64,000 nt of DNA, from the NCBI GenBank assembly GCA_902530685.1, contig CACAAZ010000001.1:31090-95089 (forward strand), in the 5' to 3' direction. Below the pieces are notes generated by a model, which was not told the origin of the DNA, did not search any database, and saw only the letters and a program-made list of their open reading frames with translations. A program made the position numbers and the translations under genes. The stretch comes from an uncultured Alphaproteobacteria bacterium (GTDB taxonomy: Bacteria; Pseudomonadota; Alphaproteobacteria; HIMB59; GCA-002718135). Within the stretch, counting starts at the first letter, position 1, and the number at the start of each line of letters is the position of its first letter. Shown one piece after another: positions 12,165-51,438 of the stretch.

Positions 12165-12278
12165 TAATTATCGCACGCAAAGGTGATAAGGAGATAAATA
12201 AGAGGAAACGAAGATTTATCTGAATCGGGAGGAAATGCACGGTTCAAAGAAAAAAGACCTAGCAATAGGTCTTTTTTT
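12165..12278 (+). ncRNA. Candidate small RNA / attenuator unit, copy 1 (unassigned family)
   Basis: A 114-nt unit repeated 218 nt downstream with 3 substitutions. 8-bp hairpin AGATAAAT/ATTTATCT with a 14-nt GGA-containing loop. SD-like AAGGAG and GGGAGGAA. Terminator-like stem AGACCTA/TAGGTCT plus T-run (12255-12278). TTGATA (12131-12136), 17 nt, then TAAATT upstream. Confidence 0.45.
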
Positions 12279-12382: not shown

Positions 12383-12497
12383 TAATTATTACACGCAAAG
12401 GTAATAAGGAGATAAATAAGAGGAAACGAAGATTTATCTGAATCGGGAGGAAATGCACGGTTCAAAGAAAAAAGACCTAGCAATAGGTCTTTTTTTT
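12383..12497 (+). ncRNA. Candidate small RNA / attenuator unit, copy 2
   Basis: Same unit as 12165-12278. Differs at the positions equivalent to 12172, 12173 and 12185. Has its own TTGATA (12349-12354), 17 nt, then TAAGCT. Terminator-like hairpin plus T-run at 12473-12497. Confidence 0.45.
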
Positions 12498-12554
12498 ATT
12501 TTTGGCCTTTTATTTTAATTGTTAAATCATAAAACTATGTGTAAAATGTAAATA

Positions 12555-12692
12555 ACGGGAGATACTGATTATTTCAGAGCCGAAGGAGCAACGACCCGGA
12601 AACTCTCAGGCAAATGGACCGTTAAAATTAAACTCTGGAAAAGAGCTTTGGCTCTACCGTAGGTGTAAAAACTCTCAGGTAAAAAGACAGAG
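12555..12692 (+). promoter_or_regulatory. Tandem glycine riboswitch (two aptamers) in the gcvT leader
   Basis: Aptamer 1: CGGGAGA...GCCGAAGGAGCAA...CUCUCAGGCAAAUGGACCG. Aptamer 2: CUCUGGAAAAG...ACCGUAGGUGUAAAAACUCUCAGGUAAAAAGACAGAG. Both carry the conserved glycine-riboswitch cores. Sits directly upstream of the gcvT SD/TTG start. Confidence 0.85.
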
Positions 12693-12712: not shown

Positions 12713-13837
12713 TTGAAAGAGTTGCCTTTAGATATTCCTCTAAAAAACTTTCACGAGATCAATGGTGCTAAAATGGTTCCATTTGCAGGTTTTAATATGC
12801 CAATTAATTATAAGACAGGCATAATTAATGAACATAAAAATGTAAGAAATCACTCTGGTATTTTTGATGTAAGTCATATGGGGCAGATGTTACTAGAAGC
12901 TACTGATTTGCATATTAATAATTTAGAAAAATATATTCCATTAAAATTAAAAAATTTAAGAAACAATAGATCAAACTATACATTTTTACTTAATGATAAT
13001 GGTGGTGTAGTGGATGATTTAATTGTTTCTTTAATAGATATAAATAGAAAATCTTTTTTATACATTGTCTACAATGCATCTAGAAAAAATGAAGATGAAA
13101 AAATTTTTTTTAAATGTGCTCCTAACGCTGAAATTTTACACGTCAAAAACTGTTTATTTGCAATTCAAGGTCCAGAATCTATTGAAGTTCTTAATAATGT
13201 AATTGAAATTCCAGTTGATATGCATTTTTTAGATATTGATGTATTAAAGTATAAAAATAATTCTATAATTGTTAGTAGATCTGGTTATACAGGTGAAGAT
13301 GGATTTGAAATTTCTATATCTACAGATCAAGCTGAAATATTCGTAAAAGATTTATTAGAAAATAAAAATACTATGCTTTGCGGTTTAGGATCAAGAGATT
13401 CATTAAGATTAGAAGCTGGATTGAGTTTATATGGTCACGAATTAAATGAAAACATTACACCAATTGAAGCAGGATTATCATGGGCGCTAGATAAAGATCG
13501 CTTAAATGATACTGCACTAAATGGCAATAAAATATTATTAAATCAATTACATAATAAACCTTTAAATAAAAAAATTGGATTAATTTCAGTTAACAGATCA
13601 ATGTTAAGAGATGGAATGATTCTATTTGATCGTAATAAAAATAATATTGGTAAAATTACGAGTGGTTGTTTTAGTCCAAATCTAAATAAATCAATAGGTA
13701 TTGGATATTTAAATTTAAATTTTGATGAAGAAAAAGAAATTTTTTGTGAAATTAGAAATAAAATGGAATTAGTAAAAAAAACTAATCTACCATTTGTTAA
13801 AAAAAATTATAAAAAAAATGGGAGTTATAATGAGTGA
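12713..13837 (+). CDS. gcvT: Glycine cleavage system T protein (aminomethyltransferase)
   Basis: TTG start after SD GGAG. GAKMVPFAGFNMP.NY, FDVSHMG and SRSGYTGEDGFEIS motifs. Confidence 0.9.
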   Translation: MKELPLDIPLKNFHEINGAKMVPFAGFNMPINYKTGIINEHKNVRNHSGIFDVSHMGQMLLEATDLHINNLEKYIPLKLKNLRNNRSNYTFLLNDNGGVVDDLIVSLIDINRKSFLYIVYNASRKNEDEKIFFKCAPNAEILHVKNCLFAIQGPESIEVLNNVIEIPVDMHFLDIDVLKYKNNSIIVSRSGYTGEDGFEISISTDQAEIFVKDLLENKNTMLCGLGSRDSLRLEAGLSLYGHELNENITPIEAGLSWALDKDRLNDTALNGNKILLNQLHNKPLNKKIGLISVNRSMLRDGMILFDRNKNNIGKITSGCFSPNLNKSIGIGYLNLNFDEEKEIFCEIRNKMELVKKTNLPFVKKNYKKNGSYNE

Positions 13838-14201: not shown

Positions 14202-17054
14202 ATGATAGACACAGATAAATTTGCAAGTAGACATATCGGCCCTAGAAATAAAGATATTATTGAAATGCTTGAAATTATTGGTTGTAAATCATTAGATGAC
14301 TTAATAAAAAAAACTGTACCAGATCATATAATTTTAAATGATAAACTTAAATTAAGACCTGGAATGTCTGAAGAATTTAATAAAACTAATACACAACTTT
14401 TGTCTTTGAAAAATAATTTTAAGAAGACTTATATAGGAATGGGTTATTATAATACAACTACTCCAAGTGTTATTCTTAGAAATATACTTGAAAACCCTGG
14501 ATGGTATACTGCTTATACTCCTTATCAACCTGAGGTAAGTCAGGGTAGATTAGAAATGTTAATGAATTTCCAACAAATGATAATTGATTTAACAGGCATG
14601 GATATCGCTAACGCTTCTTTATTAGATGAAAGTACTGCAGTAGCTGAGGCTATGATGATGGCTTTTAAAATTAAAAAAAGTGCAAAGTTTACTTTTTGTA
14701 TTCAAAATAAATGTCATCCACAAACACTATCTGTTTTAAAAACAAGAGCTAAGCCTCTAGGTATAAAAATAATTTATGATAAGCCAGACAATGATACATT
14801 TGGTTGTTTAATTCAAAATCCAGATACATACGGAGAAATTGCAAATCTCAAAGATTTAATAAACACAAATAAATCGCACAATGTGTTATCAATCATAGCA
14901 GCTGATATAATGAGTTTGGTAGTTATGAAATCACCAAAAGATTTTGGAGCTGATATAGTAGTTGGTAGTACACAAAGGTTTGGAGTTCCAATGGGTCTAG
15001 GAGGCCCTCATGCAGCATATTTTGCAACATTAGATGAATATAAAAGAATGATACCTGGAAGACTAATAGGTGTGTCAGTTGATCGTACAAATAAAAGATC
15101 CTACAGAATGGCTCTTCAAACGCGTGAACAGCACATTAGAAGAGAAAAGGCTACAAGTAATATATGTACTGCACAGGCTTTATTAGCAATTATATCTGCT
15201 TCGTATGCAATATATCATGGCCCAACTAGATTAAAAAATATTGCTGAGGACATTCACTATAAATCTAGATATTTAAAGAAATCATTGGAGATATTAAATT
15301 TTGAAGTAAAGTCAAAAAATTATTTTGATACTTTATTAATAAAAGATATAAATTCTAAATACTGGGTTAATAAATCTATAGACAATGGTATAAATTTTAG
15401 ATTTGTAAATAATGATCATTTTTCTATCTCCTTAGATGAAACTACATCACTACAAGATGTAGATAATTTAATTAAATTTTTTAATGAAAAGAATAATGAA
15501 ATATACGTGGAAGAAATTGAAAGTAAAATAGACGATTCTATTTTCAAAAGTGATTTAGAAAGAAAAGATAAAATATTAACCCATCCAGTATTTAATATCT
15601 ATCATTCTGAAACAGAAATGATGAGATATTTAAAAAAACTAGAAAATAAAGATGTCGCTTTAAATAGATCAATGATACCTCTTGGATCTTGCACTATGAA
15701 ATTAAATGCAGCATCTGAAATGCTTCCAATTACTTTACCAGGTTTTTCAAACGCACATCCATTTTTAGAACCTCATCAACGTGAGGGATATAATGAAATG
15801 ATGAGTGAATTAATATCGATGTTAAAAGATATTACTGGTTTTGATGCAGTTTCACTTCAACCTAATGCAGGAGCACAAGGTGAGTTTGCTGGTTTATTAG
15901 CTATTCAAAAATATCATGAAAAAAATTCTGATACTAAAAGAAATATTTGTATAATTCCTAAAAGTGCACACGGAACTAATCCAGCCAGTGCACAAATGTG
16001 TGGTATGGATATTTTAATCGTAAACTGTGATGACAAAGGTAATGTTGATTTAACTCACTTAGATAAAAAAATTGAAGAGGCGGGTGATAAACTCTCAGCT
16101 TTAATGATTACTTATCCATCAACTCATGGTGTATTTGAAGAGAGTATTGTTGAGATTTGTAAAAAAATTCATGATGCTGGTGGGCAAGTATATCTAGATG
16201 GTGCTAACTATAATGCAATGGTTGGTGTAGCTAAACCAGGTAAATTTGGACCTGATGTATGCCATATGAATCTCCATAAGACATTTTGCATACCTCATGG
16301 AGGAGGCGGTCCAGGAGTTGGCGCTATAGGATTAAAAAAACATTTAGCAGATTTTGCTCCCGGGCATCCTATTTTTAAAAATGAAATAGGTTTAACCAAT
16401 CAGGAGGCAGTTTCAGCTGCACCTTGGGGCAGTGCATCTATTTTACCTATTTCATATTCTTATATTTCTATGATGGGTGACGATGGTTTAAAATTAGCAA
16501 CTCAAGTAGCAATATTGAATGCTAATTATATTAAAGAAAGATTAAAAAATTATTACCCTATTTTATATACCGGTAAGAATAATATGGTAGCGCATGAATT
16601 TATTATTGATATCAGACCATTTAAACAAGAATTAAATATTTCAGATGAAGATATTGCAAAAAGATTAATTGATTACGGATTTCACGCTCCTACAATGTCC
16701 TTTCCTGTTCCCGGTACTCTTATGATTGAGCCTACTGAAAGTGAATCAAAAGAGGAATTAGATAGATTTTGTGAAGCAATGATTTCTATTCACAATGAAA
16801 TCACTATGATTAGAGATGGTAAATTTGATAAAGTAGACAATCCTATTAAAAATGCCCCACATACAATTGAAGAAGTATCTTCTGATAATTGGGATCACAA
16901 ATATTCCCGTAAAGACGCTGCATACCCACATGCTTATTTAATTAATAATAAATACTGGAGTCCAGTGAGTAGAATTGATAATGTATATGGCGATAGAAAT
17001 TTATTTTGTGTTTGTCCTCCAATTGATGAATATGAAGAGATTAAAGCAGGATAA
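14202..17054 (+). CDS. gcvP: Glycine dehydrogenase (decarboxylating), single-chain P protein
   Basis: 950 aa. NPGWYTAYTPYQPE.SQGRLE, the HLNLHKTFCIPHGGGGPG PLP-lysine region (here HMNLHKTF), and a full-length alpha+beta fusion. Confidence 0.95.
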   Translation: MIDTDKFASRHIGPRNKDIIEMLEIIGCKSLDDLIKKTVPDHIILNDKLKLRPGMSEEFNKTNTQLLSLKNNFKKTYIGMGYYNTTTPSVILRNILENPGWYTAYTPYQPEVSQGRLEMLMNFQQMIIDLTGMDIANASLLDESTAVAEAMMMAFKIKKSAKFTFCIQNKCHPQTLSVLKTRAKPLGIKIIYDKPDNDTFGCLIQNPDTYGEIANLKDLINTNKSHNVLSIIAADIMSLVVMKSPKDFGADIVVGSTQRFGVPMGLGGPHAAYFATLDEYKRMIPGRLIGVSVDRTNKRSYRMALQTREQHIRREKATSNICTAQALLAIISASYAIYHGPTRLKNIAEDIHYKSRYLKKSLEILNFEVKSKNYFDTLLIKDINSKYWVNKSIDNGINFRFVNNDHFSISLDETTSLQDVDNLIKFFNEKNNEIYVEEIESKIDDSIFKSDLERKDKILTHPVFNIYHSETEMMRYLKKLENKDVALNRSMIPLGSCTMKLNAASEMLPITLPGFSNAHPFLEPHQREGYNEMMSELISMLKDITGFDAVSLQPNAGAQGEFAGLLAIQKYHEKNSDTKRNICIIPKSAHGTNPASAQMCGMDILIVNCDDKGNVDLTHLDKKIEEAGDKLSALMITYPSTHGVFEESIVEICKKIHDAGGQVYLDGANYNAMVGVAKPGKFGPDVCHMNLHKTFCIPHGGGGPGVGAIGLKKHLADFAPGHPIFKNEIGLTNQEAVSAAPWGSASILPISYSYISMMGDDGLKLATQVAILNANYIKERLKNYYPILYTGKNNMVAHEFIIDIRPFKQELNISDEDIAKRLIDYGFHAPTMSFPVPGTLMIEPTESESKEELDRFCEAMISIHNEITMIRDGKFDKVDNPIKNAPHTIEEVSSDNWDHKYSRKDAAYPHAYLINNKYWSPVSRIDNVYGDRNLFCVCPPIDEYEEIKAG

Positions 17055-38572: not shown

Positions 38573-39652
38573 TTAAATTTTCTTTCCAACACTTATTGAT
38601 TTGATGTCAGTAATTTTAGTGTATCTATTGATCATCTGTTCTGTCTTGTGCCCACTCATTTTCATAATTTCGTGAGTTAATGCACCATTCATTCTTGCTT
38701 GTGTAATTGCACCTATTCTCAGACTGTGTCCTGATATTTTATCACAATCATTCAGTCCGGCTAGACGGGCTCTTTTTTTTAAAATTAAAACAAAACTTGT
38801 ATCTGTTAAACTAATTTTTTTATTATTGTCATTTAATTCATATTTTATAATAGAATTTGCTTTGTCAATTCTGTAAAATAGGGGGCCAGAGTTTATCATA
38901 GATACCTCTAACCATTTGTTAAGAGCTCTAATTGGACAATATAATTCACTATCATCTCTTTTTTGCAAATATATTATTCTACCTTCACCTTTTTGGTCAG
39001 TTTTTGAAAATGGTATTAAAATTTGAATTCCACCATTATCATAAGTTAAATGTTCATATCTCATTCCCAGTAATTCTGATCTTCTACAAAAACTAAAATA
39101 CCCAACTAATATAAGAGCTTTATCTCTAATATTTTTATAATCATCAGTATCATCTGGAATTGAATTGATAATTTGCTCAATATCTTTTCTTAATAACTCT
39201 TTAGCTTGACCCGATTTATTATTTTTTTCGTTTCTAACTATTGCTCCAATAGTTTCTGAAATATTATTGTTTTTTCTGTCAAATTGAAAACCGTTTATCC
39301 TATATTTATATGTTATTGATGCTAAAATTCTTTGAATTGTAGATGCTTTATAAGCAGATGACGAGTAGGGGTTATTATTAATTTTTTCTCTACCTGGAAT
39401 GTTGCTTGTTCCCTTCAATATTTTCGCTTCTGGATCTTCATGGAGCCAATCTAAGTAATTACAAGTTAATGCATAAGCGCTTTCTAAATCATCAACCTCT
39501 AAAGGACTACAATTATGCTTATTTTTACAATAATCGATAAATTTAAGCCAATCTCCCTGATATTTATCTTGAGTGTTTTTGGCTTTAGATTTTTCTTTTA
39601 ATTTCTTTACATTTTCATTTAATAATATCTTTACCATGATAAAATAATACAT
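38573..39652 (-). CDS. Tyrosine recombinase / phage-type integrase
   Basis: C-terminal catalytic region FCRRSEL...GHSLRIGAITQ...MSGHKTEQMINRYTK (R, H.LR, H, Y). The true start may be the ATG at 39637 (MVKILL). Confidence 0.85.
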   Translation of the reverse strand: MYYFIMVKILLNENVKKLKEKSKAKNTQDKYQGDWLKFIDYCKNKHNCSPLEVDDLESAYALTCNYLDWLHEDPEAKILKGTSNIPGREKINNNPYSSSAYKASTIQRILASITYKYRINGFQFDRKNNNISETIGAIVRNEKNNKSGQAKELLRKDIEQIINSIPDDTDDYKNIRDKALILVGYFSFCRRSELLGMRYEHLTYDNGGIQILIPFSKTDQKGEGRIIYLQKRDDSELYCPIRALNKWLEVSMINSGPLFYRIDKANSIIKYELNDNNKKISLTDTSFVLILKKRARLAGLNDCDKISGHSLRIGAITQARMNGALTHEIMKMSGHKTEQMINRYTKITDIKSISVGKKI

Positions 39653-39804
39653 TACGATAATTACAGTTATCGTAAATAATAGTCAAGTGATAAATAATAT
39701 AACTATAAATCAGTAATTTATATATATTATCTAATTTAATTTCTAATATTACAAACTAGATATAGATTTTCACGTGTAATAAAATACTGTATATAGTGTA
39801 TCAA

Positions 39805-40530
39805 ATGGAACAATTACCGCAGATTTCAGCTGATTCCCAGATCTTTGTATTAACGGGTGCTGGTATAAGTAAAGAATCTGGGATTGAGACATTCAGAGAC
39901 TCTGATGGACTGTGGAATAATCATAGGATTGAGGATGTTGCCAGTCCTGAAGGATTCTATAGAAACCCTACTCTTGTATACGATTTTTATAATAAACGCC
40001 GAAAAGAACTAAACTCAGGAATTAAGCCAAATAGGGCCCATATTTTACTACATGAATTAGAAAAAACATATAAAATTCATATAGTTACACAAAATATCGA
40101 TAATTTACATGAGATTGGAGGTTCATCATCAATTATTCACATGCATGGTGAGTTAAATAAAGCTAGATGTATCATGAATGAAAACCATGTTTTTCAATGG
40201 CTAGAGGACCTCAATGAGACCCATAAATGCCCTAAATGTAATTCTCAATTAAGACCTCATATTGTTTGGTTTGGAGAAATGCCAATGCAAATGGAAGAAA
40301 TCCATGATTTAGCTGAGCAATCTAGTTTGTTTGTCTCTATTGGGACTTCTGGAGAGGTCTACCCTGCCGCTGGGTTTGTTTCTATGTTCAAAGATATGCA
40401 AAAACCAACTGTAGAACTAAATCTAGAACCATCACGCAATCAAGATCAATTTGATTTTGCTATTCATAAGCCTGCAACAGTTGCTGTTGAAGAATTTAAA
40501 AACTTACTTTTAAACAATTTAAAAAACTAA
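39805..40530 (+). CDS. cobB: NAD-dependent protein deacylase, Sir2/CobB family
   Basis: TGAGISKESGI.TFR, TQNIDNLHE, CPKC...LRPHIVWFGE, GTSG.VYPAA. ATG at 39805 preferred over the ORF-track GTG at 39796. Confidence 0.85.
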   Translation: MEQLPQISADSQIFVLTGAGISKESGIETFRDSDGLWNNHRIEDVASPEGFYRNPTLVYDFYNKRRKELNSGIKPNRAHILLHELEKTYKIHIVTQNIDNLHEIGGSSSIIHMHGELNKARCIMNENHVFQWLEDLNETHKCPKCNSQLRPHIVWFGEMPMQMEEIHDLAEQSSLFVSIGTSGEVYPAAGFVSMFKDMQKPTVELNLEPSRNQDQFDFAIHKPATVAVEEFKNLLLNNLKN

Positions 40531-45318: not shown

Positions 45319-46488
45319 TTATAGAAGTTTTAATTGAAAATTATTATTTTTTATTTCTTTATTTAAGTGTTTTTTTATAAGAATTTCATTGATTTGTTCA
45401 CCAATACATTTAGCTAAAATGGGTGGTACAGCATTACCTATTTGAATGCCAATTGATCCTCTAGATCCATAAAATATAAAATCATCATCAAAGGATTGAA
45501 GTCTTGCAGCCTCTCTTGCTGTTATTGCTCTGTTTTGAAGAGGGTGCACTACCCTGCCAACTGATGGTGTATCAAACCTTGTTGTTATAGTATAGCTTTG
45601 TTTGTTTAACTCCATTCTACCAAATGAACCACTATGAATAGATTTTGTCCTTAAATTTTTTGGTAAATCATTTCTGCCTTGACCAGGTTTTATCATTTCT
45701 AATAATTTAATAATTCTTTCGTCATGACTGCTTGCAATATGGTTATATAGAATATTACTTTTTTTTCTTCTTGCTTTTTGATACTCACTTATGGGTTTTT
45801 TTGTGTATTGAGTTTCAAACTCACCTTCCCCATTATTTAAAACAGGTAAATCCATAATTGCATCACTTATTGAAACATAAGAATTTTTATATGTTGTTAT
45901 TTTTTTTGGATAAAAAAGATCAGGATTAATTTTTAAATTATTACCTATAAAGAAAGCTCTTTTTCTTTGTTGAGGTACTCCATAATCAGATGCTTTTAAT
46001 ACCTTAACCTTCAAATCATAGCCAATACTATTAAATAAGTTAAAAATTTCATTTTTAATTTTACCATTTTCTAAATTTAAAATCCCTTGCACATTTTCAA
46101 TTACAAAAACTTTTGGGTTAAGGTTTTTAACAATTTTATAAAATTGATAAAATAATTGATTTCTATCATCATCGATAAATTTACCATTACCTCTAATCCT
46201 TCTTCCAGACATGCTAAAACCTTGGCAAGGAGGCCCACCAATTATGATATCAATTTTTTTGTTTTGTGATAATTTTTTAATATCAATATTAATAATATCT
46301 TGAGAAAACATCTTAACATTTGGGTGATTTTTTGTGTAGGTATTTGCTATACTTTTATTAAACTCAACAGCAGAAACAATATTAAAACCAGCTTGTTCAA
46401 AACCTTTTGAAAAACCACCTACTCCGGAAAAGAGATCAATAACATTAAATATCTTTTTTTTGCCAGCCATATATATTTTTTGAACCAA
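45319..46488 (-). CDS. DNA (cytosine-5) methyltransferase
   Basis: Complete motif set: I DLFSGVGG (aa 18-25), IV GGPPCQGFS (84-92), VI ENV, VIII QQRKRAFF, IX RAITAREAARLQSFDD, X GNAVPP. The start may be the ATG at 46470. Overlaps the upstream MTase. Confidence 0.9.
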   Translation of the reverse strand: MVQKIYMAGKKKIFNVIDLFSGVGGFSKGFEQAGFNIVSAVEFNKSIANTYTKNHPNVKMFSQDIINIDIKKLSQNKKIDIIIGGPPCQGFSMSGRRIRGNGKFIDDDRNQLFYQFYKIVKNLNPKVFVIENVQGILNLENGKIKNEIFNLFNSIGYDLKVKVLKASDYGVPQQRKRAFFIGNNLKINPDLFYPKKITTYKNSYVSISDAIMDLPVLNNGEGEFETQYTKKPISEYQKARRKKSNILYNHIASSHDERIIKLLEMIKPGQGRNDLPKNLRTKSIHSGSFGRMELNKQSYTITTRFDTPSVGRVVHPLQNRAITAREAARLQSFDDDFIFYGSRGSIGIQIGNAVPPILAKCIGEQINEILIKKHLNKEIKNNNFQLKLL

Positions 46489-48049
46489 TTAATATTTTTT
46501 TGTAATTAAAAGCAGTTGATAAAAATTTATCAAGATTGTTAATACAAAAATAATTATATTTATAAAAACTTTTACTGACAATAAAAGGTATAATTATTTC
46601 ATATAATTTATCAGGAGTTAAAATATTATTATTTTTTTCAATTAAATTAGTTACATTTTTAATTAATAATTTTTCTAACTTTTCTTCAGATAGATTATTT
46701 TTATGGATTTTGATTTGGTTATTTTTAGTCTCTTTTCTAAAATTATAAATAAAATCACCATAAAATGTATTTTTGTAATTAAGACCTTGTGTGCCTGATT
46801 TAACTGCTTGTGATTGATAATTAATATTAATCAATTTAAATCCAGAATTAAGAGCGGCATTTATCACTGCTCTCCATATATTCATATCTCTATTATGAAA
46901 AGAAAAAGAAAAATACTTTTTGTTTTTTAATACTCTATAGATTTCTTTAAATGTACTGGTCATTCTTAACTCGTAATCTTCATATAGTTTTTTTCTATAA
47001 GGATCATAAATTATCTCACTTTTGTATTTAACTTTTTTTTGCAACCAAGAATTCCAAAACATACTTAAGCCTAAATATGCAATACTTTCACCATAAGGAG
47101 GGTCAGTAAAAACATAATCTATTGATTGGTTTTTGAGAAAATTCATTTTTTCAGAAGTTTTATTAAAAATTTTAGCATTTTTTGAGTTGAGATTTAACTC
47201 TTCTTTACCTTCTTTCATTTTTTTGAATCTATTTTCAAATGTAATAAATATATTTTTTTCAGTATGGATTTTAGGAACCCATAGTTTACTTACTACCCAC
47301 CCCGATCTACCACGAATATTTTTTTCATTTCCGGGTATCATTTTGGATACAGATGATAACATTGAAGAAAAACACAACATCAAACAATCTCTGTATTTGG
47401 TATTTTTTATTAGTAAAATCTTTTTATAAATACTACCGAGTATTAATAATGCTCTTTCAGAATAGAGTTGATCTATATTAGTTTTTCCACTCCTTTTAAC
47501 ATATTGCAATATTAAATCTTTTGGGTAAAAAATTTTATTTTCTTTACTTAATTTAAATAATTTTCTTTTTGCTTGGTTAAATAACTTAATATCTTCATCA
47601 TTAGCTTTTCTATTGGTTTCACCACATTTTTTACATTTCACTTTTATAAGTTTCAATTTTTCTTGTTCCCATATTGAATTAATTAACTCACCACTATTTT
47701 TACAATTAATACAAGATGATTTATAATATTTAGAATATTCTAATTGTGTTGTTGTAAGGATTTCATAAAATATTTTTTCTAGCCTATTTAAATTTATATT
47801 CTCTATTGTAATTTTTGTCAGTAAACATGAAATTGGATTTATATCAACACCAACTGCATTTCTTGATTCTTTTAGAGATTCTATTATAACAACACCACTA
47901 CCTAGAAATGGATCTAATACCGTGTCACCTTTTTTTGAGTAAGCTTTAATGTATTCATTGACTACATTGTGTGGCTTTCTACCCCAATATCTATGAAGTA
48001 AATAATGTTTTGGATGACTTTTTGGTTCAATATTTTTAGAAATTTTCAA
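46445..48049 (-). CDS. N6-adenine/N4-cytosine DNA methyltransferase with internal Zn-ribbon
   Basis: SAM motif HRYWGRKPHN...VLDPFLGSG (aa 46-52) at the N-terminus. Catalytic DPPYG at aa 316-320. CINC...CKKC (C113, C116, C139, C142) lies between them. Confidence 0.85.
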   Translation of the reverse strand: MKISKNIEPKSHPKHYLLHRYWGRKPHNVVNEYIKAYSKKGDTVLDPFLGSGVVIIESLKESRNAVGVDINPISCLLTKITIENINLNRLEKIFYEILTTTQLEYSKYYKSSCINCKNSGELINSIWEQEKLKLIKVKCKKCGETNRKANDEDIKLFNQAKRKLFKLSKENKIFYPKDLILQYVKRSGKTNIDQLYSERALLILGSIYKKILLIKNTKYRDCLMLCFSSMLSSVSKMIPGNEKNIRGRSGWVVSKLWVPKIHTEKNIFITFENRFKKMKEGKEELNLNSKNAKIFNKTSEKMNFLKNQSIDYVFTDPPYGESIAYLGLSMFWNSWLQKKVKYKSEIIYDPYRKKLYEDYELRMTSTFKEIYRVLKNKKYFSFSFHNRDMNIWRAVINAALNSGFKLININYQSQAVKSGTQGLNYKNTFYGDFIYNFRKETKNNQIKIHKNNLSEEKLEKLLIKNVTNLIEKNNNILTPDKLYEIIIPFIVSKSFYKYNYFCINNLDKFLSTAFNYKKILIGSKNIYGWQKKDI

Positions 48050-48052
48050 ATT

Positions 48053-50563
48053 TTATCTCCAGTGTAAATCATTAGATTGGAGATAATTTAAATATTTTGA
48101 TTTATTATGTTTATCAAATAAAATTATTGATTTGGTTTTTAATAAATTTTCAAATTTATTTATTCTATTATTAACTATATCAATTTTTTCATCAGGTATT
48201 TTTATATAAGTATTGTTTATTTTTAAATGATTAGAATATTTGAATATTTCTGGAATTCTATCATCAAGACCTTGAGATGCAGATGGTGTTTTTTCTTTCA
48301 AAAGTCTTCTGAGATCGTGAATATTCTCTTCTTCACGAAAATTTATTATTAATCTATATGCGCTATCCCAATCATTATAATTTTTTAGAAAAATAATAAA
48401 AAATCGCCATTCTTCTAATGATACCGTGTATGATCCCGTTGTTTTTCCTATTTCTAGAATTATTTTATACAACGTCATAATAAAATAATTTTTAAAATCT
48501 GTAAAAAAAACCCTTGTATCTTTCGCCTTTCTTATATCTGTATCTCTTCCTATTCCTCCAAAATAAAATAATTTTTCTATTTGATCGGTAATGATATTAT
48601 TAATAACTCTTAAATTAGTTAAGCTTGAATCCCTTAAGTAAATTTTTTCAAATACTTTTGTTACAACCCATTTATTGTGTTTTTCCTCTTTTAGTAATCC
48701 TAAAATTTTTGATAAAAAAAGACCTCTTCTTCCAGCTGTGAATTCTTCTGTGTATTTTTTAATTTCTATTTTAAATTCTCCATCTTTTATATCAGGTTTT
48801 TCATATAATATTTTGCAACCTAGTAATTGATCTAATATATTCTTATTTTGTTTTTGTATTTTACAAAAAGCTTGATTTTTTGTTTTTACTTCTATTGCTT
48901 TTGCATATTGTATCCATTCATCTGAAATTTTTTCAATTCTAACTCTTTGACTTAGTAACGCATCAGATCTATTAAAGAATTCTTGTAATCTTTTTGTAAA
49001 ATGAACTTCACAATTATTATTATCAAAATAATAGGTATCTTTTATTTTTTTATCTTTAATACCTAATGATTTTCTTAATTGATCTGCTCTGTATTGATTT
49101 TCACCAATAAAATCTAACACTATGACTGACTCTTTTCTTGGAGATATTCTTAACCCTCTTCCTAATTGTTGAGTAAATATAACTTCTGATTCAGTAGGTC
49201 TTAAAAATAATAAGCATTCTACATCTGGAAAATCTATACCTTCATTAAATACATCTTTGCAGAAAATAATTTCATAATCGTTATTTCTAAACCCCTCGGT
49301 AAATTCTGCTCTATCCTCAGCACTCAACTGACTAACATCGCTATGAATTGCCTTAGTTTTAAAACCATTCTTATTAAATACATTTGATATGTGTTCCGCA
49401 TATTCAATACTTGGACAAAAACCAATGGTTTTCTTTCCTAAAGCATGGTATTTATATTCCTTAACTATAGCCTTATCTCTTTTTTCAACTATTAAAAGCT
49501 TATTAAGGTCGTCTTCATCATACCTAAAACCGTTATGGTAAATTTTTGAGTAATCAATATCATCATCAAGCGTAATATATTTAAATGATACTAACCATCC
49601 CTTATCCATTGCTTCATGAACTCCAACATCATCAATGACGTTATCATCATAAACTGTTTGAACATTAGTCCCATCAGTTCTTACTGGAGTTCCAGTTACA
49701 CCAAGTAAAAAGCTAGGTTTAAAATAATTTAATATTTTTTGATAACTTTTTGCAGTTACATGATGGGTTTCATCAAAAATGATATAATCAAAATGATTTT
49801 TATCAAAAATTTCTAAATTTTTTGTTTTTGACAAAGTTTGCACTGATGCAAAAATTACTTGTTTATAAAAAATGCCTTTTGTTTTCTCTTTGCCATAATA
49901 AAAACCTTTTGAACTCTGTGGCCAAACATCATCGAATGCATTTTTATTTTGTTCAAGAACATCATTTAAATGAACTATAAATAATGTTTTTTTATTATAA
50001 CGTTTGGCATCAAAAGCAGTTAAGTATGTTTTTCCTAAACCAGTTGCGTGAATAATAATTCCTTTTTTGTTTCCTTTTGCTCTAGATTTTTCAATTTTAT
50101 CTAACGCAATCCTTTGTGGCTCATAAGGAGTTATTTTTTTATCAGTATATTTGTTCAGAGCATAAACATTTAATTCCTCATCTGCTATGAATAATCTCTT
50201 TAACTGATCAATACACTTATGTGGTTTTTGTTTAATATCATCTAGAGGTACTCTATGAATTGTATAACCTTTTCTTGATAATACATTTTGTCTATCATTT
50301 TGATCAATCAATTGTTCTGGACTTAAAACTCCATGAGTTCCGTAATCATCTATTTCGATAGCATATTTTTTTAATTTAGTTTTTATTGTGAAATCGATAA
50401 AATTATTTTTTCCACTATCTCTTTCGAAGGGAGTTTCTGGATTGATTAAGTTTAATCCATATTCTTTTAAATATGGATAATAGACATTTCTTATAAACAT
50501 TTCAGATCCATAGGTAAGTTTTCTACCTCTATACTTTGCATTTAGAAAAAAATTTAAATCCAT
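48053..50563 (-). CDS. Nuclease-helicase fusion: Vsr/DUF559-like N-domain + SF2 (ResIII/DEAH) helicase + unknown ~330-aa C-domain
   Basis: aa 50-110 FIDF...YAIEIDDYGTHG...DRQNVLSRKGYTIHRV (PD-(D/E)XK-like). Walker A ATGLGKT (173-179), DETH (264-267), TGTP (290-293), QQLGRGLR (465-472). aa ~500-836 unrecognised. Confidence 0.85.
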   Translation of the reverse strand: MDLNFFLNAKYRGRKLTYGSEMFIRNVYYPYLKEYGLNLINPETPFERDSGKNNFIDFTIKTKLKKYAIEIDDYGTHGVLSPEQLIDQNDRQNVLSRKGYTIHRVPLDDIKQKPHKCIDQLKRLFIADEELNVYALNKYTDKKITPYEPQRIALDKIEKSRAKGNKKGIIIHATGLGKTYLTAFDAKRYNKKTLFIVHLNDVLEQNKNAFDDVWPQSSKGFYYGKEKTKGIFYKQVIFASVQTLSKTKNLEIFDKNHFDYIIFDETHHVTAKSYQKILNYFKPSFLLGVTGTPVRTDGTNVQTVYDDNVIDDVGVHEAMDKGWLVSFKYITLDDDIDYSKIYHNGFRYDEDDLNKLLIVEKRDKAIVKEYKYHALGKKTIGFCPSIEYAEHISNVFNKNGFKTKAIHSDVSQLSAEDRAEFTEGFRNNDYEIIFCKDVFNEGIDFPDVECLLFLRPTESEVIFTQQLGRGLRISPRKESVIVLDFIGENQYRADQLRKSLGIKDKKIKDTYYFDNNNCEVHFTKRLQEFFNRSDALLSQRVRIEKISDEWIQYAKAIEVKTKNQAFCKIQKQNKNILDQLLGCKILYEKPDIKDGEFKIEIKKYTEEFTAGRRGLFLSKILGLLKEEKHNKWVVTKVFEKIYLRDSSLTNLRVINNIITDQIEKLFYFGGIGRDTDIRKAKDTRVFFTDFKNYFIMTLYKIILEIGKTTGSYTVSLEEWRFFIIFLKNYNDWDSAYRLIINFREEENIHDLRRLLKEKTPSASQGLDDRIPEIFKYSNHLKINNTYIKIPDEKIDIVNNRINKFENLLKTKSIILFDKHNKSKYLNYLQSNDLHWR

Positions 50564-50668
50564 TTAATCAATTTCACATGCGTAAACATATTTGTGACCT
50601 AAAAGTTCAAGACCAAAATGAAGGCCTCCTAAGCCTGAAAATAGATCAATAAATTTTAATTTTGCCAT
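50564..50668 (-). pseudogene. 34-aa N-terminal stub of a second C5 DNA methyltransferase
   Basis: Minus-strand ORF MAKLKFIDLFSGLGGLHFGLELLGHKYVYACEID* carries motif I (DLFSGLGG) and motif II (ACEID) only. Its TAA is immediately followed by the helicase ATG. Confidence 0.6.
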
Positions 50669-50673
50669 TTTAA

Positions 50674-51438
50674 TTAGACACCGGAGTTACGATATAAGCA
50701 ATGCTTGCAGTTTGGATTTTGATCTGGAATTTTATCATTATCTAATGTTTTTTTAATATTTAAAATTGTTTTATCAACCCAAGAATAATCTCCTTCATAG
50801 GATAAAATATCAATTTTAAATTTTAACTCTTCATTAAAGTTTTCTATATTTTTATAATATGCACTACAAAAAACAAAATAGGCAGTTGTAGAAACATCAA
50901 AGCCATTTTTATTAAACAGCCATTGATAAAATTCAACTTGTTTCTTATACCAATATTTATGAGGGGCTCCTTTTTCATCTAATGAGGGATCTAGAGGTTC
51001 ATTTGTTTTTTTATCATATGATACTGTTGTACTTTTATAATCAGCAATAAAAATTTTACCATTTTTGTCAGTCCAACAATCATCTATTGCCCCGTATAAT
51101 AGAAAATTAGTATCAGTATCGTGGTACTGTATTCCTTTGCGATTATTTTGCCAATCTTCAATTTCATCATGTTTATAGGGAATTAAATCTATTTCATGTT
51201 CTTTACAGTATGGGTGTACAGTTTGTGTTTTTCTATATTTATCAAATTCATTTTTAAGTAATTTATCCAAAGCTGTTGGAATATATGACATTGGTCCTGA
51301 TGGACGGGCAATGCGATATTTTTCTAAACGATCTATGTAAAAACAACGAGGACATTGTAAAAAAAGATCAACCTTGCTTCGACTAAGTTTAAAAGGTTCG
51401 TTTTGACCTGATATATATAAATTTTTTTTATTAACCAT
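50674..51438 (-). CDS. Cas4/RecB-like PD-(D/E)XK nuclease with 4-Cys cluster
   Basis: C29..C32 and C244..C247. GAIDD (D119/D120), IADYK (D133, K135), QVEFY (Q167...Y171) give the RecB-family D/(D/E)XK/QxxxY arrangement. Confidence 0.75.
   Translation of the reverse strand: MVNKKNLYISGQNEPFKLSRSKVDLFLQCPRCFYIDRLEKYRIARPSGPMSYIPTALDKLLKNEFDKYRKTQTVHPYCKEHEIDLIPYKHDEIEDWQNNRKGIQYHDTDTNFLLYGAIDDCWTDKNGKIFIADYKSTTVSYDKKTNEPLDPSLDEKGAPHKYWYKKQVEFYQWLFNKNGFDVSTTAYFVFCSAYYKNIENFNEELKFKIDILSYEGDYSWVDKTILNIKKTLDNDKIPDQNPNCKHCLYRNSGV

What the first reader, a model, noticed from the sequence alone, without database searches (positions are those of the whole stretch)
48053..50563. Helicase with N-terminal Vsr/DUF559-like nuclease and a large unassigned C-terminal domain
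The domain order is inverted relative to Type III Res, which has the helicase first and the nuclease last. The first ~120 aa (FIDF...YAIEIDDYGTHG...DRQNVLSRKGYTIHRV) look like the small PD-(D/E)XK module usually found fused to Upf1-like helicases. The SF2 core spans about aa 150-490. Residues ~500-836 are one third of the protein and match nothing I recognise. That region could be the target-recognition or methylation-sensing module of the system.
Basis: inference. Interest (0 to 1): 0.6.

Follow-up and report, generated by a model that had tools for sequence, protein, structure and literature searches.

The report
Motor-driven restriction enzyme with two methylases
The gene encodes the cutting subunit of a three-gene restriction-modification system: a small nuclease, an ATP-driven DNA motor like that of SauUSI, and a C-terminal DNA-reading domain of the kind used by Type IIS restriction enzymes, followed by two protective DNA methylases. 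This combination is widespread in metagenomes, and I found no description of it in the libraries or papers I searched.

Summary
The 836-aa ORF is real, but it lies on the minus strand (48053..50563). The N-terminal Vsr/DUF559-like PD-(D/E)XK nuclease is confirmed. D57 is kept in 49/49 full-length homologues, E70 in 47/49, D72 in 41/49 and H77 in 46/49. The SF2 core (aa 142-492) is closest to the Type IV enzyme SauUSI. The "unassigned" C-terminal third can be assigned. Its AlphaFold model matches only the DNA-recognition domains of the Type IIS enzymes Nt.BspD6I and BpuJI, and homologues hit the N-terminal part of Pfam RE_AlwI. In all 10 distinct loci that encode this architecture, the gene sits next to a C5-cytosine methylase. 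In 9 of 9 loci that could be judged, it also sits next to a (D/N)PPY amino-methylase. That is the two-methylase signature of an asymmetric target site. Related helicases without this C-domain almost never have a methylase neighbour. A sub-clade whose N-domain has lost its catalytic residues has a separate PD-(D/E)XK (NOV_C) gene appended to the operon. The same recognition domain and methylase pair also occur with McrB-like GTPases. Best reading: an ATP-dependent, sequence-specific, methylation-blocked restriction enzyme, a new variant of known kinds (SauUSI, Type ISP, CglI, LlaJI). PADLOC's "Type IV" label rests on the helicase alone.

The parts
48053..50563 (-). R gene: 836-aa nuclease-motor-TRD restriction subunit (stop codon included)
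   Evidence: ORF. Full-length homologues. AlphaFold full-length model with pLDDT 86. Top PDB fold match is SauUSI 7clg, E 3e-24.
50174..50563 (-). aa 1-130: Vsr/DUF559/MTES_1575-like PD-(D/E)XK nuclease domain (D57, E70-x-D72, H77)
   Evidence: Pfam MTES_1575 E 1.5e-5 in the query; 35/49 homologues hit MTES_1575 and 13/49 hit DUF559. Motif conservation. Predicted alpha-beta-beta-beta-alpha-beta core. The only PDB profile hits are the Vsr-class structures 3r3p and 3hrl, and they are weak (E 0.3 and 0.9).
49088..50140 (-). aa 142-492: SF2 helicase-like ATPase core with intact motifs I (GLGKT, 175-179), II (DETH, 264-267), III (TGT) and VI (QQLGRGLR)
   Evidence: Pfam ResIII and Helicase_C. PDB phmmer hit to SauUSI 7clg, E 5e-57, over aa 142-519. 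PADLOC mREase_IV hit covers the helicase region only. Motifs.
48905..49087 (-). aa 493-553: conserved linker (beta-hairpin with the invariant Y-D-N-N-G motif plus helices), a candidate coupler between motor and TRD
   Evidence: Invariant or near-invariant D514, N515, G517. Secondary structure. This stretch is not shared with the McrB-linked copies of the TRD (profile positions below ~65 are absent there).
48056..48904 (-). aa 554-836: tandem winged-helix target-recognition domain of the Type IIS (AlwI/BspD6I, BpuJI) kind
   Evidence: Foldseek against PDB. Pfam RE_AlwI N-terminal part in homologues. A profile search finds the same domain at the N-terminus of McrB-like AAA_5 proteins, E 1e-15 to 1e-26.
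46445..48049 (-). M1: 534-aa amino-methylase (motif I VLDPFLGSG at aa 44, DPPY at aa 316), predicted N6-adenine; starts 4 nt after the R stop codon
   Evidence: Pfam N6_N4_Mtase and PADLOC MTase_II over the full length. Motifs. Orthologues adjacent to R in L001, L006, L087, L088 and L092.
45319..46488 (-). M2: 389-aa C5-cytosine methylase; overlaps the end of M1 by 44 nt (26 nt if the internal ATG is used)
   Evidence: Pfam DNA_methylase E 2e-78. A C5 methylase is adjacent to R in 10/10 loci.
50622..50636 (-). Terminator-like hairpin between the upstream Cas4-like gene and R. This is weak evidence that R-M1-M2 is its own transcription unit.
   Evidence: one site found against 1.3 expected in shuffles, so the evidence is only suggestive.

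Best explanation
The ORF is the restriction subunit of a compact R-M1-M2 operon. Shown: it is one polypeptide with (i) an N-terminal Vsr/DUF559-class PD-(D/E)XK nuclease with conserved catalytic residues, (ii) an SF2 helicase-like ATPase most similar to the motor of SauUSI, with all ATPase motifs intact, (iii) a conserved linker, and (iv) a C-terminal tandem winged-helix domain of the kind that reads short asymmetric sites in the Type IIS enzymes Nt.BspD6I and BpuJI. It is always encoded beside one C5-cytosine methylase and one (D/N)PPY amino-methylase. Inferred mechanism: the C-domain binds an unmethylated asymmetric site. M1 (probably m6A) marks one strand and M2 (m5C) marks the other, so both hemimethylated daughter duplexes stay protected after replication. 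Binding to an unmodified site switches on the ATPase, which moves the enzyme along double-stranded DNA, as in SauUSI and Type ISP enzymes. The N-terminal nuclease, which has a single active site, nicks the DNA. A double-strand break then needs two nuclease domains, either from a homodimer or from two enzymes that converge from oppositely oriented sites. Which of these two applies is open.
For: Domain anatomy. Nuclease residues conserved: D57 49/49, E70 47/49, D72 41/49, H77 46/49; 108 of 114 Ndom+Hel+Cdom homologues keep the DF...xEx[DN] motif. The TRD is assigned by three independent routes. First, Foldseek gives significant hits only to Nt.BspD6I and the BpuJI recognition domain. Second, Pfam RE_AlwI positions 45-140 are hit in 15/49 homologues, five of them above the gathering score. 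Third, a profile search finds the same domain N-terminal in McrB-like AAA_5 proteins. Gene context: all 10 distinct loci with helicase+Cdom (window, L001, L003, L005, L006, L008, L086, L087, L088, L092) have an adjacent C5 methylase, and 9 of 9 assessable loci have an adjacent (D/N)PPY amino-methylase. That amino-methylase comes in three unrelated architectures and in either gene orientation. Among about 74 loci with related helicases lacking Cdom, only 2 have a C5 methylase within 8 kb. Compensation: the sub-clade with a catalytically dead N-domain gains a NOV_C/DUF3883 PD-(D/E)XK gene directly after M2 in both independent loci (DUF3883 is assigned to the PD-(D/E)XK fold in PMC3424549). McrB-like proteins carrying the same TRD sit directly after an amino-methylase plus C5-methylase pair in 2 of 3 loci; in the third (L089) the gene upstream of the C5 methylase is cut off by the contig start and was not identified. 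Their C5 methylases share conserved blocks in the variable region with the helicase-linked ones. Precedents from the literature: two methylases for asymmetric Type IIS sites, and LlaJI as a McrBC-like system that reads unmodified DNA (PMC12707154); SauUSI architecture and translocation (PMC7913695; 10.1101/2025.10.16.682607); a SauUSI-like motor-nuclease reused against unmethylated DNA in MANTIS (10.64898/2026.09.23.753747).
Against: There is no biochemical or genetic test of any family member, and the recognition sequence is unknown. Pfam RE_AlwI does not hit the query itself, and the fold match has modest TM-scores (0.43-0.55). MTES_1575 scores below Pfam's gathering score in the query, and the N-domain fold was not searched on its own. 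R is the first gene of the operon, which is an unusual order for safe establishment of an R-M system. K-mer statistics of the window show no avoided asymmetric site. The oligomeric state and cleavage geometry are pure inference. The context statistics rest on 10 loci.
Confidence: 0.7

Rival explanations
1. It is a Type IV, methylation-dependent restriction enzyme of the SauUSI family, as PADLOC labels it, and the neighbouring methylases are unrelated.
For: The best PADLOC hits are mREase_IV PDLC03658/9, E about 1e-60. The best PDB sequence and fold match is SauUSI.
Against: These matches cover only the helicase core (aa 142-519). The PLD nuclease and the SRA/DUF3427 reader that define SauUSI are both absent. 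Two methylases are adjacent in every locus examined, whereas helicase relatives without this C-domain lack them. A methyl-directed nuclease that is constantly linked to two methylases would be self-toxic.
Confidence: 0.03
2. Target recognition is supplied by the methylases, as in Type III or MANTIS. The C-domain would then be a docking or coupling module, or would give only non-specific DNA binding, and would not be an autonomous TRD.
For: Type III Res and MANTIS MtsD rely on partner proteins for recognition. The C-domain is fairly well conserved across the family (44% mean column identity, with invariant W550, R613, Q661, K664, R769), which is unlike hypervariable TRDs.
Against: The fold is that of autonomous DNA-recognition domains, one of which was solved in complex with its cognate DNA (BpuJI 2vla). 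The amino-methylase partner has been replaced by three unrelated architectures (permuted ~530 aa, beta-class ~260 aa, gamma-class 595 aa), which is hard to reconcile with a specific R-M protein complex. Gene orientation relative to the methylases also varies.
Confidence: 0.12
3. It is a repair enzyme and not a defence enzyme: a helicase-coupled, Vsr-like nickase that corrects T:G mismatches from 5-methylcytosine deamination at the sites of the linked C5 methylase.
For: The N-domain belongs to the Vsr/DUF559 group (PMC3424549). Vsr genes are classically linked to C5 methylases. A C5 methylase is adjacent in 10/10 loci.
Against: Pfam Vsr (PF03852) is not hit, and the motif is the DUF559/MTES_1575 type (E-x-D-G..H). 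A predicted adenine methylase, whose product creates no deamination mismatch, is linked just as constantly. In one sub-clade the nuclease is replaced by an unrelated PD-(D/E)XK protein. The same TRD and methylase cassette is used by McrBC-type restriction machinery. The distribution is patchy and associated with mobile elements (a conjugative element in L003; a recombinase near the window locus).
Confidence: 0.05

Closest known systems
SauUSI (Type IV ATP-dependent restriction enzyme, PDB 7clg)
   Same: One polypeptide in the order nuclease - SF2 helicase-like ATPase - linker - C-terminal TRD. The helicase core is clearly homologous (E 5e-57; top Foldseek hit E 3e-24).
   Different: SauUSI has a PLD nuclease that forms the dimer, an SRA-type TRD that needs 5mC/5hmC, and no cognate methylase (PMC7913695). 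Here the nuclease is Vsr/DUF559-like, the TRD is of the Type IIS winged-helix kind, and two methylases are always linked.
Type ISP restriction-modification enzymes (LlaGI/LlaBIII, PDB 4xqk)
   Same: N-terminal PD-(D/E)XK nuclease, SF2 translocase and C-terminal TRD reading an asymmetric unmodified site. LlaBIII is a high-ranking full-length fold match (rank 8).
   Different: Type ISP enzymes carry the methylase inside the same polypeptide and, from my own knowledge of the family, methylate one strand only. Here no methylase domain is fused, two separate methylases are present, and the TRD has a different fold.
AlwI / Nt.BspD6I / BpuJI Type IIS restriction enzymes
   Same: The recognition domain has the same fold and is partly detectable by sequence. 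Both use the two-methylase logic for asymmetric sites (PMC12707154).
   Different: Those enzymes are ATP-independent and carry their own C-terminal catalytic domain. That part of the RE_AlwI profile is never matched here. In this protein the TRD is C-terminal and is driven by a motor.
CglI / NgoAVII (ATP-dependent Type II) and LlaJI (McrBC-like R-M)
   Same: NTP-driven restriction of unmodified asymmetric sites, protected by separate methylases. The same design principle applies. McrB-like proteins with this very TRD exist.
   Different: Those systems split recognition/nuclease and motor into separate subunits and use a B3-type TRD. CglI/NgoAVII use a PLD nuclease; LlaJI restricts through a McrC-related nuclease working with a McrB-type NTPase.
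MANTIS MtsD
   Same: A SauUSI-like motor-nuclease used against unmethylated DNA.
   Different: MtsD has a PLD nuclease and no TRD; recognition comes from the MtsABC complex, and methylation is on one strand only.

Membership tests
SauUSI-type Type IV enzymes (PADLOC mREase_IV) | Homologous SF2 helicase-like ATPase core | tested here: met
SauUSI-type Type IV enzymes (PADLOC mREase_IV) | N-terminal PLD (HxK) nuclease | tested here: not met
   No PLD hit; the N-domain is MTES_1575/DUF559-like.
SauUSI-type Type IV enzymes (PADLOC mREase_IV) | SRA/DUF3427 modification-reading TRD and no cognate methylase | tested here: not met
   The C-domain matches Type IIS recognition domains only. Two methylases are adjacent in all loci.
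Type III Res subunit | Helicase first, PD-(D/E)XK nuclease at the C-terminus, recognition supplied by a Mod subunit | tested here: not met
   The nuclease is N-terminal and the protein carries its own C-terminal TRD. The Pfam ResIII hit is the generic helicase N-lobe.
Type ISP R-M enzymes | Nuclease - SF2 motor - coupler - TRD order in one chain | tested here: met
Type ISP R-M enzymes | Methylase domain fused in the same polypeptide | tested here: not met
   No methylase domain in the 836-aa protein. The methylases are separate genes.
AlwI/BspD6I and BpuJI Type IIS REases | Tandem winged-helix recognition domain | tested here: met
   Foldseek E 7e-5 to 9e-4, the only significant hits. RE_AlwI positions 45-140 hit in 15/49 homologues. 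Not detectable by Pfam in the query itself.
AlwI/BspD6I and BpuJI Type IIS REases | The family's own C-terminal catalytic domain; ATP-independent cleavage | tested here: not met
   RE_AlwI profile positions beyond ~141 are never matched. An SF2 ATPase with intact motifs is present. ATP dependence itself cannot be tested here.
Vsr/DUF559/MTES_1575 group of PD-(D/E)XK nucleases | Conserved D ... E-x-D-(G) ... H catalytic motif on an alpha-beta-beta-beta-alpha-beta core | tested here: met
Vsr/DUF559/MTES_1575 group of PD-(D/E)XK nucleases | Score above the Pfam family threshold, or a clear match to solved members | tested here: inconclusive
   MTES_1575 scores 25.4 bits against a cutoff of 38.2. 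The PDB profile hits 3r3p and 3hrl have E 0.3 and 0.9 only. The N-domain fold was not searched separately.
Restriction-modification system in general | Methylation by M1/M2 protects against cleavage by R | not testable with these tools
   Needs methylome sequencing and restriction assays.

The most novel reading that the evidence does not exclude
This is the prototype of an undescribed class of restriction enzyme: a single-chain, ATP-driven 'motorised Type IIS' enzyme. Its specificity cassette (winged-helix TRD plus an m6A and an m5C methylase) can be exchanged between two unrelated NTP motors, a SauUSI-type helicase and a McrB-type GTPase. Its nuclease can be supplied in cis (Vsr-like domain) or in trans (NOV_C protein). 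It would not fit Types I-IV as currently defined.
Probability: 0.5. Interest if true: 0.65.

Novelty: new variant of a known kind. Interest (0 to 1): 0.55.

Why it matters
It shows that a SauUSI-type motor, so far known from methyl-directed (Type IV) restriction and from MANTIS, is also used in a widespread classical R-M format with its own sequence reader. Current annotation tools mislabel these genes as "Type IV" or simply "DEAD/DEAH helicase". The family gives a clean natural experiment in module swapping among R-M systems: the same TRD and methylase pair on two different motors, and the nuclease in cis or in trans. A characterised member would add a new ATP-dependent enzyme for an asymmetric site, and a test case for how translocation is coupled to nicking by a nuclease with a single active site. 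Here the system sits in a very AT-rich marine genome.

Full report
OBSERVATION. The coordinates 48053..50563 hold an 836-aa ATG ORF on the minus strand; the plus-strand translation is full of stop codons. The gene is real. A search of the protein collection returned 2119 relatives, of which more than 100 are full-length proteins of about 850 aa at 35-51% identity, with E-values down to 1e-268. The exact sequence is present in an NCBI assembly on a 118.5-kb contig, and its cluster contains a TARA Oceans surface-water fragment. The window is 24-31% G+C throughout, and the locus is not compositionally distinct.

ANATOMY. Pfam places MTES_1575 (a Vsr/DUF559-class restriction-endonuclease fold) at aa 54-122. 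The E-value is 1.5e-5, but the score of 25.4 bits is below the gathering score of 38.2. ResIII lies at 144-295 and Helicase_C at 372-473, and nothing is found beyond aa 500. NCBIfam has no family-level model for the protein; all hits are far below their cutoffs. PADLOC calls it 'mREase_IV' at E about 1e-60, but that alignment covers only aa 142-511, which is the helicase. The best solved relative by sequence is SauUSI (7clg, E 5e-57, aa 142-519). It is also the best fold match of the full-length AlphaFold model (pLDDT 86; Foldseek E 3e-24), ahead of RadD, the Type ISP enzyme LlaBIII and Type I HsdR. ATPase motifs I (GLGKT), II (DETH), III (TGT) and VI (QQLGRGLR) are present and invariant in 49 homologues.

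N-DOMAIN. In an alignment of 49 full-length homologues, D57 is kept in 49/49, E70 in 47/49, D72 in 41/49 (N in five), H77 in 46/49 and K/R91 in 46/49. MTES_1575 is hit in 35/49 members and DUF559 in 13/49. The predicted core is alpha-beta-beta-beta-alpha-beta. A profile of the domain finds only two solved structures, 3r3p and 3hrl, and both hits are weak (E 0.3 and 0.9). These are the two structures that the PD-(D/E)XK classification of Steczkiewicz et al. groups with Vsr and DUF559 (PMC3424549). Across the top 120 hits, 108 of the 114 proteins with all three domains keep the DF...xEx[DN] motif.

C-DOMAIN. This part changes the finding. An AlphaFold model of aa 495-836, built on 24 homologues, is confident (pLDDT 85, pTM 0.83). 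Foldseek against the PDB gives twelve significant hits. All of them are the nicking enzyme Nt.BspD6I (6qnz, 2ewf, 5lhc, 5liq, 5liz; E 7e-5 to 4e-4) or the isolated recognition domain of BpuJI, including its complex with cognate DNA (2vla, 5hnf, 5hnh, 5hlt; E 6e-4 to 9e-4, TM 0.55 on the target). About 300 columns are aligned in each case, and the thirteenth hit has E 0.3. Independently, 15 of 49 homologues hit Pfam RE_AlwI. In the five inspected, the match covers profile positions 45-141 of 441, which is the N-terminal recognition part, and falls at about aa 675-782 of the homologues. All five score above the gathering score. The C-terminal third is therefore a tandem winged-helix target-recognition domain (TRD) of the Type IIS kind. 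It is preceded by a family-specific linker (aa 493-553) with an invariant YDNNG beta-hairpin.

CONTEXT. On the same strand, four nucleotides after the R stop codon, lies a 534-aa amino-methylase (VLDPFLGSG at aa 44, DPPY at aa 316). Overlapping its end is a 389-aa C5-cytosine methylase. I looked up seven homologues on their contigs and scanned all fetched loci with my own HMMs. Every distinct locus that encodes helicase plus this C-domain has a C5 methylase adjacent: window, L001, L003, L005, L006, L008, L086, L087, L088 and L092, which is 10/10. Every locus where the contig extends far enough also has a (D/N)PPY amino-methylase adjacent (9/9). The amino-methylase comes in three unrelated architectures: permuted ~530 aa, beta-class ~260 aa, and gamma-class 595 aa with NPPY. 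The methylases can be co-directional with R or convergent on it. As a control, about 74 loci from the genome collection carry closely related helicases without this C-domain, and only two of them have any C5 methylase within 8 kb. One methylase for each strand is the textbook solution for asymmetric Type IIS sites (PMC12707154).

TWO FURTHER LINES OF EVIDENCE. (a) A sub-clade (P0099, P0104, P0110, P0111, P0103, L006) keeps the helicase, the TRD and both methylases, but its N-domain has lost the catalytic residues; for four of these proteins the N-domain HMM no longer detects the domain, while P0103 still scores weakly. In both independent loci of this sub-clade, a 450-aa NOV_C/DUF3883 protein is encoded directly after the C5 methylase (L006 7610-8962; L092 12167-13519; Pfam E 2e-13 and 2e-15). 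DUF3883 is a PD-(D/E)XK family. None of the seven loci with an intact N-domain shows such a gene. A nuclease supplied in trans when the cis nuclease is dead argues that DNA cleavage is the output of the system. (b) A profile of the C-domain searched against 1.8 billion cluster representatives gave 227 hits. Of the best 144 hits not already held from the first homologue search, 51 are proteins of at least 450 aa with the domain at their N-terminus, and 43 of these have a GxxGxGK[ST] P-loop downstream. All eight of these that I scanned carry AAA_5, the McrB-type GTPase domain. Three such genes were looked up. All three lie directly downstream of a C5 methylase. In two (L090, L091) this is preceded by an Eco57I-type amino-methylase. 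In the third (L089) the upstream gene is cut off by the contig start and was not identified. The variable (TRD) region of these C5 methylases shares long conserved blocks with the helicase-linked ones. The same recognition domain and methylase pair is therefore mounted on two different NTP-driven restriction chassis. The McrB version parallels LlaJI, which reads an unmodified asymmetric site and has two methylases. Sister families keep the Vsr-like nuclease and the helicase but replace the C-domain with arrays of the 'homing endonuclease associated repeat'. L007 and L026, the two examples whose surroundings were read, sit next to amino-methylases.

MECHANISM. Shown: the domain composition, the conservation of nuclease and ATPase residues, the TRD fold, and the obligatory linkage to two methylases. 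Inferred from SauUSI (PMC7913695; 10.1101/2025.10.16.682607), Type ISP enzymes and Type IIS logic: the TRD binds an unmethylated asymmetric site, and either the m6A mark on one strand or the m5C mark on the other blocks it. Site binding activates the ATPase and translocation on double-stranded DNA, and the N-terminal nuclease cuts. A Vsr-class domain has one active site, so a double-strand break needs two copies. These could come from a dimer, or from collision of two enzymes as in Type ISP. This step is open. I give 0.7 to 'ATP-dependent, methylation-blocked, sequence-specific restriction subunit' and much less to any particular cleavage geometry.

RIVALS. The Type IV reading (0.03) rests on the helicase only and is contradicted by the domains and the context. 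Methylase-supplied recognition, as in Type III or MANTIS (0.12), is disfavoured by the autonomous-TRD fold and by the repeated replacement of the amino-methylase. A Vsr-like repair role (0.05) is disfavoured by the constant adenine methylase, the NOV_C substitution and the McrBC-linked cassette.

COMPARISON AND NOVELTY. The protein works like SauUSI or a Type ISP enzyme in chassis, and like a Type IIS system in recognition and protection. It fails defining tests for membership in each class. It has no PLD nuclease or SRA reader (SauUSI). It has no fused methylase (Type ISP). It has no AlwI catalytic domain, and it does have an ATPase (Type IIS). It has no C-terminal nuclease or Mod-dependent recognition (Type III). 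Its nearest conceptual relatives are CglI/NgoAVII and LlaJI, but these are multi-subunit systems with B3-type TRDs. Literature searches found no description of this architecture. The curated libraries name it only as a generic helicase or wrongly as Type IV. REBASE could not be consulted, so a prior computational prediction there cannot be excluded. I rate it a new variant of a known kind, with interest 0.55. It is not categorically new, because every module and the overall design principle have precedents. It is nevertheless a coherent, widespread and testable system that current classifications miss.

Noticed in passing
window 50674-51438 (- strand); L003 14153-15631; L092 14380-15960: Directly upstream of R lies a 254-aa Cas4-like PD-(D/E)XK protein (Pfam PDDEXK_1, E 8e-11) with Cys pairs at both ends (CPRC...CKHC). 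Two homologue loci have a DUF2779 gene next to the system (DUF2779 is, from memory, also Cas4-like; not checked here). There is no sequence similarity between the window protein and those genes, and a terminator-like hairpin separates the window gene from R. This may be a recurrent accessory nuclease or a defence-island coincidence.
   Followed up: partly
L006 2402-8962; L092 7001-13519 (= L093): A sub-clade of the family has a catalytically dead N-domain and has gained a 450-aa NOV_C/DUF3883 PD-(D/E)XK gene immediately after the C5 methylase. The nuclease appears to be supplied in trans.
   Followed up: yes
L089 1810-3648; L090 4277-10157; L091 434-5119: McrB-like AAA_5 GTPases carry the same recognition domain at their N-terminus and sit directly downstream of a C5 methylase. 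In L090 and L091 this is preceded by an Eco57I-type amino-methylase; in L089 the upstream gene is truncated by the contig start. L090 also has a 409-aa gene after the GTPase, possibly McrC-like. This is a LlaJI-like system with a different TRD.
   Followed up: partly
L007 7941-10604; L026 7932-10676; P0115, P0118: Sister families share the Vsr-like nuclease and the helicase but end in 'homing endonuclease associated repeat' (PF18780) modules, up to 8 copies in P0115. L007 is flanked by two amino-methylases and L026 by one. This suggests a broader modular class of motorised restriction enzymes.
   Followed up: partly
L008 6504-9068: In a Pseudomonadales MAG the R gene is split into ORFs of 763 and 91 aa, either by a frameshift or by an assembly error. 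This could be decay of the restriction gene beside a retained C5 methylase.
   Followed up: no
window 12167-12246, 12385-12464, 12546-12631 (+ strand): Two tandem IMES-4 RNA motifs (78 and 74 bits) lie directly upstream of a glycine riboswitch aptamer (64 bits). These precede an ORF at 12713 and a 950-aa glycine dehydrogenase at 14202. IMES-4 has no known function, so its placement next to a glycine riboswitch may be worth a look.
   Followed up: no
window 38573-40530: A tyrosine recombinase (XerD-like, weak match) lies at 38573..39652 and a Sir2-family NAD-dependent deacylase at 39796..40530, about 5 kb from the R-M operon. Several ORFs between them and the operon have no family assignment. 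This may mark the edge of a variable island, although G+C content gives no signal.
   Followed up: no
L001 4501-7908 (= L002 1503-4910): In the closest full-length homologue locus (51% identity), the gene upstream of R is a 1135-aa protein with RNase_H_2 and AAA_11/AAA_12 (SF1 helicase) domains. In the window that position is taken by the Cas4-like gene.
   Followed up: no
window 45319-48055: The three genes are tightly packed. M1 has a TTG start 4 nt after the R stop codon, and M2 overlaps M1 by 44 nt (TTG start) or 26 nt (internal ATG). R is the first gene of the operon, so how methylation gets ahead of restriction on entry into a new host is unclear.
   Followed up: no
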